Program-made: the position numbers and the translations under genes
In this document: positions 6,349 to 10,011 of the stretch, piece after piece
How the letters are laid out: each line of letters opens with the position of its first letter
Position numbering within the stretch: the stretch's first letter is position 1
Assembly (NCBI RefSeq): GCF_006345805.1
Contig: NW_021826771.1
Location: forward strand, 1-12,079
Direction of reading: 5' to 3'
DNA from: Octopus sinensis
Lineage: Eukaryota
Length of the DNA: 12,079 nucleotides
The notes under the pieces: generated by a model
What the model was told of the DNA's origin: nothing
The model's database searches: none
What the model saw: the letters and a program-made list of their open reading frames with translations, nothing else

Positions 6349-6829
6349 ATAACTTATTATTAGCTTTAGTTATTGTCATTTGTGTCCAGTGGCGACTCGT
6401 GTTTAGGCACTGCGGAACCGCAGCACACCTTTCATGGCTATTCGATCACTAACAGGCGGCCTCAGCATTAATGGTTATCAAATAAGGTGTTGTTACACCG
6501 TAGGGTATCACAGACAACAGTTAAGGGTACCGCAAGGTTGTTTTAATTTTAAATAATGATACAATGAATAAAAAACAATGTCAATCGGGATAGCACGATC
6601 ACGTAGTACTTAGCAAAAAAGATGGCGGAAGGTGTAAGCCCTCACCACTAGTCCCAGATATGTAAAAGGCGCAAAATAGTTTTTGATTCTTCTTGCGTGT
6701 TGATTAAGTCGGGGAGCTGAAATTATCGTTGGCCCTGAGCTCTGAGAAATCATTACAATGCTACTGGTATTGCAAAACTTAACCAGAAAAGGAAGATAGA
6801 ATGAAGTGTTTAAAGAAATACTGGAAACT

Positions 6830-7238
6830 AGTGCTTTACATAACCGCTCGACCTGCTAGAAATAACAAGCAAAATCTCTCTTTTAACCATTTTGATGACC
6901 AAATTTATGTTGAAATACACTGTCTTTGTTTCAATTAAGTATATTTTAAAAAAAGACAATAATTAATAAAATAACTTTGTTGTTCTTGAACTGGTGTTTG
7001 CAACATAAATTGACGAGAAGCATTGTTGGAAAATATTTGATTTACATCATTATAAAACAAAAAAGTTTGTATCATTGAACCAACGGCATTTTCAGGTGAG
7101 ATGGTCACAACAGCTTTCTACTCTGCGGACATACTGGATAAGGTAGTCCTCGAGATGGTTGTCCTTGAAGAAATAAAAGACGATAGACAAGATGTGTCTC
7201 GTTCGATTAGGGTTCATAAATAACAACAACAAAAACAA
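6830..7238 (+). mobile_element. Decayed interspersed repeat ('family C', probable SINE 3' part with (CAA)n tail) split by a MITE
   Basis: aaccgctcgacctgctagaaataac (6842-6866) and ggacatactggataaggtagtcct...aacaacaac (7127-7230) resemble contiguous parts of a cephalopod repeat recalled from memory. There is no second full copy in the window to confirm this. Confidence 0.4.
6883..7113. mobile_element. Putative piggyBac-like MITE, decayed
   Basis: Starts with TTAA followed by ccattttgatgacca. The right end tggtcacaacag is only partly inverted-complementary. The AT-rich ~230-bp body resembles a recalled octopus MITE. The right-hand TTAA is not preserved. Confidence 0.45.
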
Positions 7239-7239
7239 T

Positions 7240-7272
<33 letters not shown>

Positions 7273-7298
7273 CGCCACTACCACCACCACCGCTACTA
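7240..7298. repeat. (ACT)n/(ACC)n trinucleotide repeat
   Basis: Read directly. Confidence 0.95.
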
Positions 7299-7449
7299 TT
7301 CGTACAAACAGCCCGCGATAATCTGGTACCGGGTTTTAAATAGATTGTAGTAAGTATTTATATTATCTCCCACCTTGTTACAACGCGTGATCGAATCACA
7401 CCGGGGTGAGGTATAACCCCGGGCTAGCCTTAATCAAGCATATATATAT

Positions 7450-7802
7450 TTCTTTTATCTGTTTCAGTCATTTGATTGAGCCATGCTGGAGCACCGCCTT
7501 TAGTCGAGCAAATCGACCCCAGGACTTATTCTTTGTAAGCCTAGTACTTATTCTATCGGTCTTTCTTGCCGAACCGCTAAGTTACGGGGACGTAAACACA
7601 CCAGTGATGCTGGGAGAACAAGCACAGACACAAATATATATATGGGCTTCTTTCAGTTTCCGTCTACCAAATCCACTCGCAAGGCTTTGGTCGGCCCGAG
7701 GCTACAGTAGAAGACACTTGCCCAAGGTGCCACGCAGTGGGACTGAACCCGGAACCATGTGGTTGGTAAGCAAGCTACTTACTACACATCCACTCATGCG
7801 CC
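7450..7802 (-). mobile_element. Family-A SINE, full length, nested in the hAT-like element and flanked by (TA)n
   Basis: The reverse complement starts ggcgcatgagtggatgtgtagtaagtagcttgcttaccaaccacatggttccgggttcagtccc and contains ggcaccttgggcaagtgtctt. Both flanks read tatatatatt. Confidence 0.92.
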
Positions 7803-8352
7803 TATATATATATATATATATTAAATATGTGTGTATATATGGGCGTGTATGTTTGTATATAGATAGATAGATATATATATAAATGAATGGGAAAGTAGAC
7901 ATATACACATACATATGTAAGTATGTTTCGGGAGAATTTGGCTGGTTGCTGTATGTATCCAGTTATTCAAGTGACTCTACAGTGTTTCCGTTGTTAGCTA
8001 TGTAATCTGCAGTGAACACAGCGAAGGTCAGTAAAGTTGACTCACTTTGTTGCTGCTGTTTCTGTTCTTATTGTTGTTGTTATTTAACTGTTTATTTTCC
8101 AAGGTGGTAATGGAGTAGAGCGGTAGTTCCATTGCAATCAAAGAAATGGTGCAGCCGTATCGGATTTGTCCCATTTGCAGTCACCCCTACGACCATATGT
8201 TATACGTTATACGTCAGCTACTTCAAGTTTCATGCTCGGATACTGTGCACGACTCGACAGTCATTCAGGATCAAATATTCATTAAATGACATTATTTCTT
8301 ATTGAATTGAATACAATTGTTGCAGATAATATCGTCGGGCGAACAGTACTTT

Positions 8353-8516
8353 ACATGTATATATGACTATACTCATGTATATGTATGTATATATAATATA
8401 TGTGTGTGTGTGTGCATGTATATATGTATGCATATGCATGTATATGTATATCCGTGTATATGCATATGTTTATATTTGTGTGTACGCGTACATATATGCA
8501 TATATTTGTATGTGTG
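8353..8516. repeat. (TA)/(TG) low-complexity tract
   Basis: Read directly. Smaller tracts lie at 7803-7920 and (GA)n at 8868-8887. Confidence 0.92.
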
Positions 8517-9078
8517 AATGTGGGCCCCACTAAATCGAAAAACTGATTTGCATAAATAGTGCTTTTTGTTAGTAGCTGGGTTAATTTATAAATCAACTTA
8601 TCTTTAATTAATTGATTAATTATGCATTAAATATCACGAGTTTGGGTAGGTAGTGGAAATCTACGGGGAAATATATATCGTATGTAGGTTATTATTAACT
8701 GTCACAACGGTAAGCAATCAAATTAGCACGTTATTTTACAAATTTTACAGAATATTAGACGTTAGTCAGCAGTGATTTACTTGCAGTTTTCAGCAGTCAC
8801 GGGACTCTGTTCACATCCTCCATCTTAAAAACGTCCTCCCTTTTAAAAACTGTCGGGAGCGAATTAAGAGAGAGAGAGAGAGAGAGATTTTGCAATGGCA
8901 TTGAAATGACTCATTGGAGCTTTCTTTGCATCTTTCTTCTGAATCTATATGGAAATATTGAAAAAATTATTGTTGTTGCTTTTGTTGGTGTGAGCTTTAT
9001 TATAAGGGAAGATTTAGTTATCATAATGGGATTGTTTGGACAACTAACTACGTAACATTCTTTGCTGACAAAACACAG

Positions 9079-9360
9079 CTGGTTTCGGTCATTGGACTGC
9101 GACCGTACTGGAGAACCGTTTTGAAGGGTTCAGTTGAATAAATCAAGCCAAAGACGTTTTATTTTTTCGTTTTACTTTTTTTTTTAAATCTGGTACCTAG
9201 TGTACGAGTCACTTATGCCGAACTGCTTAGTCACGGGGACGTAAAATAACCAATACCGGTTGTCAAGAAGTAATTGAGACACAAACACAAAGACACACAA
9301 CCACACACACACATACACTCAGGCTTCTTTCAATTTCCGTCTACTAAATCCATTTACAGG
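9079..9360 (-). mobile_element. Family-A SINE, 5'-truncated and diverged, nested in the hAT-like element
   Basis: gtttcggtcattggactgcgacc...gccgaactgcttagtcacggggacgtaaa...ggcttctttcaatttccgtctactaaatcca is collinear with 7460-7680. The tRNA head is missing. Confidence 0.85.
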
Positions 9361-10011
9361 ACATTGAAAAAAATACAAAACAACAAAGCAAAAATCCTTG
9401 TACAGAACTGTGCTCTTCACAGTTCCAATAACGCAGTGTTTTGCTGTTGTGCGCATGCTCACATACCCGAGATAAGAAGCTTCACGCTAGGGAGAGAGAG
9501 CACTGCATGATCGACAGCGCAGGCATCGGTGTTCTGGTGAAAGGTAGTGTCTCTTTTTGACTCCGCTTGTGTTGTGCTTAAAAACGGGTTTATAATCTTG
9601 AATGTAATAAAGTGTAGAATTAGATTATTACCCTGCTTCCAGCTTCAGTGTGGTCGCCAGGATTGGAAACATAGGGCACATTTCCCCGCCTTATTGGGTG
9701 ATTTAGAGGGGATTCTTGAAAAACAAGGGGGAATTCGCGGCAGTGTCAGTGAACAAATTAAACACACTACTCGGCAGTGGCTAAAACGCGAACCGATCAA
9801 GTTTATGTGTAAATTTTCTTTTTATATGTTTGTTTCCTTTTACACAAAATTAAAACAACGGCTAAAAATTTTCTGAAGTAACACCTCCACTAATTTTATC
9901 TAAGAGCCGCCACTGTTTGTGTCCAACAAGAAGAGTGTGACGTCATTAACCAGTCGTGGCCATTTCAATTTACTTTGCATTAGACACGTATGCTTCTAGG
10001 TACAAACATCA

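What the first reader, a model, noticed from the sequence alone, without database searches (positions are those of the whole stretch)
6379..9923. Hidden 3.5-kb hAT-like transposon with TIRs and a perfect 8-bp TSD
Seen: TTTGTGTC|CAGTGGCGACTC at the left end and GAGCCGCCACTG|TTTGTGTC at the right. The TIRs match at 11/12 and the flanking 8-mers are identical, about 1 in 65,000 by chance given the TIR pair and uniform composition. Known: 8-bp TSDs with short CAG-initiated TIRs typify the hAT superfamily. Inference: most of the apparently unique DNA from 6.4 to 9.9 kb is the body of one non-autonomous element, which the ORF track does not reveal. It may be an uncatalogued family.
Basis: partly seen in the sequence, partly recalled or inferred. 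Interest (0 to 1): 0.72.

Follow-up and report, generated by a model that had tools for sequence, protein, structure and literature searches.

The report
Small transposon split by host DNA
The ends and the 8-base duplication are real, but they belong to one copy of a common 700-base jumping element that has 2.9 kb of single-copy, likely older, host DNA inside it, likely patched in when a break was repaired; this is a known kind of accident, not a new 3.5-kb transposon family.

Summary
The termini and TSD are real. They belong to a ~700-bp non-autonomous, hAT-type MITE family with several hundred copies in G000 (173 and 224 near-exact ends). Copies share boundaries and carry their own 8-bp TSDs with nTnnnnAn bias.

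The window copy keeps consensus 1-43 and 167-703. In place of the missing ~120 bp sit 2.9 kb of single-copy, non-coding DNA. It holds repeats about 2.5-3 times more diverged than the MITE, including a SINE cut at the right junction with 2-bp microhomology. None of 73 other copies has such an interior. Contigs of two related organisms bridge the left junction; the right junction was not read-checked.

So the 3.5-kb body is a one-off, not a family. Best reading: Pack-TIR-like capture by break repair (0.55). No donor copy was found, so a two-copy macrotransposon (0.2) and duplication-deletion (0.15) stay open. Dfam and Repbase could not be checked. The scan had no note on this sequence. Low interest.

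The parts
6379..6386 (.). left target-site duplication (8 bp)
   Evidence: family TSD length 8
6387..6400 (+). left TIR (14 bp in the family; one change here at position 9)
6387..6429 (+). left end of the MITE, consensus 1-43, 91% identical; a weak gapped extension to about 6454 (consensus 71) is not significant, 14 of 150 controls score as well
6430..9364 (.). single-copy host-like filler, about 2.9 kb, replacing consensus 44-166 (or 72-166); no Pfam match in 3 frames tested, no hAT transposase remnant, no Rfam match
6880..7113 (.). old dispersed-repeat fragment inside the filler, 18-25% diverged from its 19 best fetched matches
7443..7803 (-). SINE-like very high-copy repeat, about 6% from consensus; may have inserted after the capture (the label SINE and the strand rest on recalled anatomy)
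9079..9366 (-). old copy of the same SINE-like family, 21-25% diverged from its 14 best fetched matches, cut off exactly where the MITE resumes; 2-bp microhomology at 9365-9366
9365..9915 (+). right part of the MITE, consensus 167-703, about 90% identical
9902..9915 (-). right TIR (one change at position 13)
9916..9923 (.). right target-site duplication (8 bp)

Best explanation
One copy of a ~700-bp non-autonomous hAT-type element sits here between its 8-bp target duplication, and 2.9 kb of single-copy host DNA replaces about 120 bp of it, likely because a break inside the element was repaired with a piece of pre-existing chromosomal DNA (Pack-TIR-like gap filling or capture). Shown: the family, its boundaries and TSDs, the missing consensus stretch, a single-copy interior, a SINE cut at the right junction with 2-bp microhomology, and a left junction shared with relatives. 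Inferred: a hAT transposase acting in trans made the insertion during the family's burst (copies are ~8% from consensus); the capture came later and needed no transposition; the composite never moved again and is now a neutral fossil; the donor has been lost, lies outside the assembly, or the piece was moved rather than copied.
For: The two element parts are collinear and do not overlap (1-43 and 167-703), with no other MITE trace in the window. Filler repeats are 18-25% diverged from their best fetched matches against 6.5-9.3% for the MITE, so they likely could not have inserted into it. The SINE continues into its head in relatives but stops at 9366 here, sharing TG with consensus 167-168. 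0 of 73 other left-end loci have a multi-kb interior bounded by a matching TSD, and 0 of 20 truncated copies have a right end 6-16 kb away. A perfect TSD is no sign of recent movement: 17 of 48 paired copies have one. Tan et al. 2021 (PMC8277862) report 208 of 370 animal Pack-TIRs as hAT, mostly single-copy, about 2 per 10,000 TIR elements, with median 2-bp microhomology.
Against: No donor was found. Genome searches with 6432-6830, 8520-9060, 7890-8350 and 6200-6880 gave only the window plus short or repeat hits, and contig depth over 6553-6789 is flat with one contig in runs X3, X14 and X20 (X9 shows some extra cover). A donor 16-20% diverged would lie near the 80% limit, and the contig is only 12 kb, so the test is not airtight. 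The loss (95-123 of 703 bp, 14-17%) is larger than Tan's median of 4.6%. The right junction was not checked with reads.
Confidence: 0.55

Rival explanations
1. Macrotransposon: the left end of one copy and the right end of a neighbouring copy were cut out together with the host DNA between them and reinserted here, making the 8-bp TSD. The inner parts of both copies were lost before or after.
For: It explains the missing donor and the older interior. Substrates exist: L133 has two full copies in direct orientation 3.3 kb apart, each with its own TSD, and L238 has two full copies 4 kb apart, more than several hundred copies in 2.7 Gb would give by chance. Truncated copies are common (20 of 73). 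Ac macrotransposons excise and reinsert in maize (PMC9910405, passages).
Against: It needs two extra deletions that leave no trace of 660 bp and 166 bp of element and no inner TSD; none is seen. No second example among 73 loci.
Confidence: 0.2
2. Local duplication or block rearrangement followed by deletion: a tandem duplication copied one end with its TSD and flank, and deletions removed the redundant parts, leaving former flanking DNA between the ends.
For: Duplications that involve this family are seen: L143 (2.0 kb, 99.3%, two right ends with one TSD), L150, L198, and L138 (about 130 bp flank + TSD-like site + first 60 bp repeated 2.5 kb before a full copy, 80%).
Against: The interior matches neither flank in the window except through SINEs and microsatellites, and no orphan SINE head lies in the window. 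The second copy of the block would also have to be lost: at least three events.
Confidence: 0.15
3. The interior is a nested mobile insertion (a rare transposon or a retrocopy) rather than repair filler.
For: 10 of 73 copies carry nested inserts of 0.15-1.15 kb; 2 of 12 inserts tested match the SINE.
Against: No second copy, no inner TSD or TIR, no A- or T-tail at either junction, no Helitron-type ends (sequence), no coding trace, and the boundary cuts an old SINE.
Confidence: 0.06
4. One reading: a 3.5-kb non-autonomous family whose body is this DNA, or else a chance pairing or misassembly.
For: The ends and TSD do bound 3.5 kb. The right junction has no read check.
Against: The interior is single-copy; 0 of 73 copies share it. 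One X3 contig spans 6206-6937 with 1 other letter, and one X20 contig spans 6368-6937 with 19, so the left side is no assembly error. The matching 8-mer argues against chance pairing.
Confidence: 0.04

Closest known systems
Single-copy animal Pack-TIRs (Tan et al. 2021, PMC8277862; read first part of the text, section 8 and passages)
   Same: TIR element interrupted by non-TE DNA, single copy, hAT type, 2-bp microhomology, part of the element lost, TSD of the original insertion kept.
   Different: Their definition needs a parental copy at 90% identity or more; none was found here. The loss is larger than their median. Their 100 genomes hold no octopus (0 occurrences of the word).
Non-autonomous hAT elements/MITEs with the Ac-family target consensus nTnnnnAn (PMC8961557, passages)
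   Same: 8-bp TSD, 14-bp TIR (within the 10-25 bp given), T at TSD position 2 in 43 of 74 and A at position 7 in 42 of 74 (p=2e-6 and 6e-5), several hundred copies, no coding capacity.
   Different: No autonomous parent was found, so the subfamily rests on target bias alone. This copy is five times the family length.
Young 3.8-kb autonomous hAT family in G000 (L160, L161)
   Same: 8-bp TSD that fits nTnnnnAn; one TIR shares its first 8 bases with the MITE's; 720-aa frame with PF14291 and PF05699.
   Different: No similarity beyond the TIR tip; its two copies are 99.3% alike, far younger than the MITE, so it is not the parent.
Maize Ac macrotransposons and composite insertions (PMC9910405, passages)
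   Same: Host DNA between two hAT termini, bounded by an 8-bp TSD.
   Different: There two separate elements or their inner parts are seen; here only complementary halves of one element are.

Membership tests
hAT superfamily (non-autonomous) | 8-bp target-site duplication | tested here: met
   Identity 0.84 at 8 bp, 0.20-0.31 at other lengths, 49 copies; 34 of 48 with at most 1 mismatch
hAT superfamily (non-autonomous) | short TIRs (10-25 bp) | tested here: met
   14-bp perfect TIR in the consensus of 26 copies
hAT superfamily (non-autonomous) | link to a hAT transposase-coding parent with the same ends | tested here: inconclusive
   No MITE end in 30 of 150 scored PF05699 loci; no tblastn hit with one hAT transposase in 78 MITE loci; only an 8-bp TIR tip shared with L160
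hAT, Ac family | target consensus nTnnnnAn | tested here: met
   the window's own TSD fits position 2 but not 7
hAT, Ac family | transposase phylogeny | not testable with these tools
   no parent transposase found
MITE family | short, uniform length, high copy, non-coding | tested here: met
   34 of 49 paired copies are 600-760 bp; 173 and 224 near-exact ends; 773 candidates
Pack-TIR (Tan et al. 2021) | non-TE DNA inside both parts of one TIR element with its TSD | tested here: met
Pack-TIR (Tan et al. 2021) | parental copy of the captured DNA elsewhere in the genome | tested here: not met
   none; so filed as Pack-TIR-like, not as a Pack-TIR
Pack-TIR (Tan et al. 2021) | microhomology at a breakpoint | tested here: inconclusive
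   2 bp at the right junction, short enough to be chance; the left junction cannot be judged without the donor
Pack-TIR (Tan et al. 2021) | intact element at the orthologous site of an outgroup | tested here: inconclusive
   Organisms B and E share the left junction; no listed contig of organism C bridges it
Macrotransposon | two separate elements (inner ends or inner TSDs) around the host DNA | tested here: not met
   no further MITE sequence in the window at E<1 beyond two chance hits of 13-21 bp
Catalogued Dfam/Repbase family | match to a library consensus | not testable with these tools
   no repeat library held; the O. vulgaris consensus set is on Zenodo and was not seen

The most novel reading that the evidence does not exclude
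A natural animal macrotransposon: the ends of a hAT MITE cut 2.9 kb of host DNA out of its place and carried it to a new site, leaving no donor behind. This would make locally hopping MITE pairs a source of small-scale genome reshuffling in a likely cephalopod genome.
Probability: 0.2. Interest if true: 0.45.

Novelty: new member of a known kind. Interest (0 to 1): 0.22.

Why it matters
Little on its own: a neutral, non-coding fossil of a known process. It adds a Pack-TIR-like case in a lineage missing from the published survey and defines a 703-bp MITE family that may or may not be catalogued. It also warns that TIR+TSD structure alone misjudges element size. It would matter more if an outgroup showed that the host DNA was moved by transposase rather than patched in, since donor-less cases are invisible to Pack-TIR pipelines that require a parental copy.

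Tried and rejected
Autonomous parent: the PF05699 search gave 150 scored matches of 1,386 candidates; 30 loci were fetched and none held a MITE end. The young 3.8-kb hAT is unrelated beyond the TIR tip. Coding remnants: tblastn of its transposase against the window, the consensus and 78 MITE loci found nothing; Pfam on four window frames found nothing. The tblastx gave SINE and microsatellite noise and its output was cut. Rfam: 0 matches. Empty or allelic site in G000: none (the right flank search was swamped by a repeat with 7,804 candidates, 40 scored). Local duplication of the interior in the window: none. Distant right ends for 20 truncated copies: none. SINE ages lean on a consensus dominated by young copies, so one search's nearest-match values were used instead; those come from the best 40 scored of 1,247 and 5,154 candidates and may miss closer copies. 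A breakpoint hotspot near the left end was considered (several copies break at consensus 24-64) but not tested formally. A literature search for the TIR string returned unrelated primer hits. Searches for octopus or cephalopod hAT MITEs and animal macrotransposons listed no description of this family; only listings were seen for most.

Full report
Observation. The sequence shows TTTGTGTC at 6379-6386 and 9916-9923 around 3,529 bp whose ends match as inverted repeats at 11 of 12 and 12 of 14 positions. Taken alone this is modest: 5 of 200 shuffled windows gave a comparable non-simple structure. The window is bases 1-12,079 of contig C3242 of G000, a 2.72-Gb animal genome. I take it to be an octopus from the recalled look of its SINEs and its size; no call establishes this.

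The family. The right 216 bp found 773 candidates, the 40 scored being 89-93% identical apart from the window itself. The left 214 bp matched other places over only the first 38-60 bp. In 27 of 40 fetched loci the two ends pair, 642-728 bp apart in 26 of them, each with its own 8-bp flank repeat. The consensus of 26 copies is 703 bp with a perfect 14-bp TIR, and copies average 93% identity to it. Pattern searches give 173 left and 224 right ends within one mismatch, with 0 for the reversed controls, so there are several hundred copies. The TSD is 8 bp: identity 0.84 against 0.20-0.31 for other lengths. It is biased to T at position 2 (43 of 74) and A at position 7 (42 of 74), the nTnnnnAn consensus given for Ac-family hAT elements (PMC8961557, passages). 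A young 3.8-kb autonomous hAT in the same genome has an 8-bp TSD and a TIR with the same first 8 bases, but is otherwise unrelated. No parent was found. If the host is an octopus, 8-10% divergence would match the TIR burst at distance 0.09, dated to 25 million years in PMC13282606 (first third of the text read); this is inference.

This copy. It matches consensus 1-43 at 6387-6429 and 167-703 at 9365-9915; the right part is 9.7% from consensus against a mean of 8.2% for 60 others. About 120 bp is missing and 2.9 kb stands in its place.

How other copies compare. Of 100 listed left ends, 73 were fetched with 6 kb downstream; the 27 left out were already held, already paired at normal length, or second ends within a fetched locus. 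Of the 73, 34 are 600-760 bp, 4 are shorter, 10 carry inserts up to 1.15 kb, and 24 have no right end in range. One apparent long case (L138) is an orphan 60-bp end before a separate full copy. Four of the 24 reach consensus 664-700 and were not followed; the other 20 have no right end out to 16 kb. None has a multi-kb interior with a matching TSD.

The interior. Searches of G000 with its non-repetitive parts return only the window or short hits. It holds an old repeat at 6880-7113, SINE-like copies at 7443-7803 and 9079-9366, and microsatellites, with no coding or Rfam signal. The old repeat and the second SINE differ by 18-25% from their best fetched matches, the MITE by 6.5-9.3%. The interior is therefore likely older than the element. 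The second SINE ends exactly at the junction, where its relatives continue into the head, and two bases are shared with the MITE. This looks like a repair or deletion joint in existing chromosomal DNA. The first SINE, 6% from consensus, may be a later insertion.

Reads. Of 24 listed runs, 4 were laid on 6000-8340. One contig of organism B spans 6206-6937 with 1 other letter, bridging flank, TSD, TIR and left junction. One contig of organism E spans 6368-6937 with 19 other letters and bridges the junction. Two runs of organism C hold 6556-6937 and 6909-7213 at about 93-94%, a neutral-looking level, but no listed contig bridges the junction. Depth over the unique interior is flat and single in three runs, so no donor at 80% or more appears; X9 has a little extra cover at 6553-6710.

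Mechanism. The simplest account is insertion of one MITE by a hAT transposase in trans, then a break inside it repaired with host DNA, losing 95-123 bp. Tan et al. 2021 (PMC8277862; first tenth of the text, section 8 and passages read) describe this for animals: mostly single-copy, hAT the commonest type, median 2-bp microhomology, 57% within 15 kb of the donor. Against it, their defining parental copy is missing here and the loss exceeds their 4.6% median. I file it as Pack-TIR-like (0.55). A macrotransposon (0.2) explains the missing donor, and close pairs of copies exist (L133, L238), but it needs both inner halves to vanish without trace. Duplication then deletion (0.15) has models in L138, L143, L150 and L198, but no duplicate of the interior is seen. 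A nested element (0.06) and a 3.5-kb family or artefact (0.04) are poorly supported.

Novelty. The kind is known. Whether the family is catalogued is open: the O. vulgaris library lists 134 hAT families (supplement row) but its sequences are on Zenodo and were not seen, and the supplements of PMC8277862 were not opened. Paper searches showed no description of this family. The scan held no note on this sequence; notes on other elements of this genome are unchecked leads. Verdict: observation confirmed, interpretation partly right, interest 0.22.

Noticed in passing
L160:1398-5196 and L161: Young autonomous hAT family: 3,799 bp, two copies 99.3% alike, perfect 8-bp TSD in L160, intact 720-aa frame with DUF4371 and the hAT dimerisation domain; 6 listed places show the 720-aa frame, so it may be recently active.
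   Followed up: partly
L237:6295-6488 and 8827-9671 (L138): About 130 bp of flank plus the first 60 bp of the MITE is repeated at 80% identity 2.5 kb before a full copy, with other DNA (a SINE and part of a ~184-bp satellite also found 7 kb upstream) between; it looks like a mis-repaired break at the left end.
   Followed up: partly
L133 and L238: Two pairs of full MITE copies 3.3-4 kb apart, one direct with separate TSDs and one inverted; with further pairs 13-60 kb apart, this suggests local hopping.
   Followed up: partly
L143, L150, L198: Tandem duplications of 1.3-3.8 kb that include part of a MITE copy; L143 is 99.3% identical and could be recent or an assembly artefact.
   Followed up: partly
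L147:51-120 and L166:51-215: Internal deletion derivatives of 70 bp and 165 bp that keep both ends and their TSDs.
   Followed up: no
window 1500-3780: A run of about ten degenerate ~170-bp units of another dispersed repeat (families D15-D20), 60-80% alike; an old head-to-tail cluster.
   Followed up: no
window 10014-10330: A different very high-copy SINE-like repeat (7,804 candidates, about 80-82% identity) just right of the element.
   Followed up: no
window 3987-4489 and 5690-6060: Two further, older copies of the same SINE-like family as those inside the element, in opposite orientations.
   Followed up: partly
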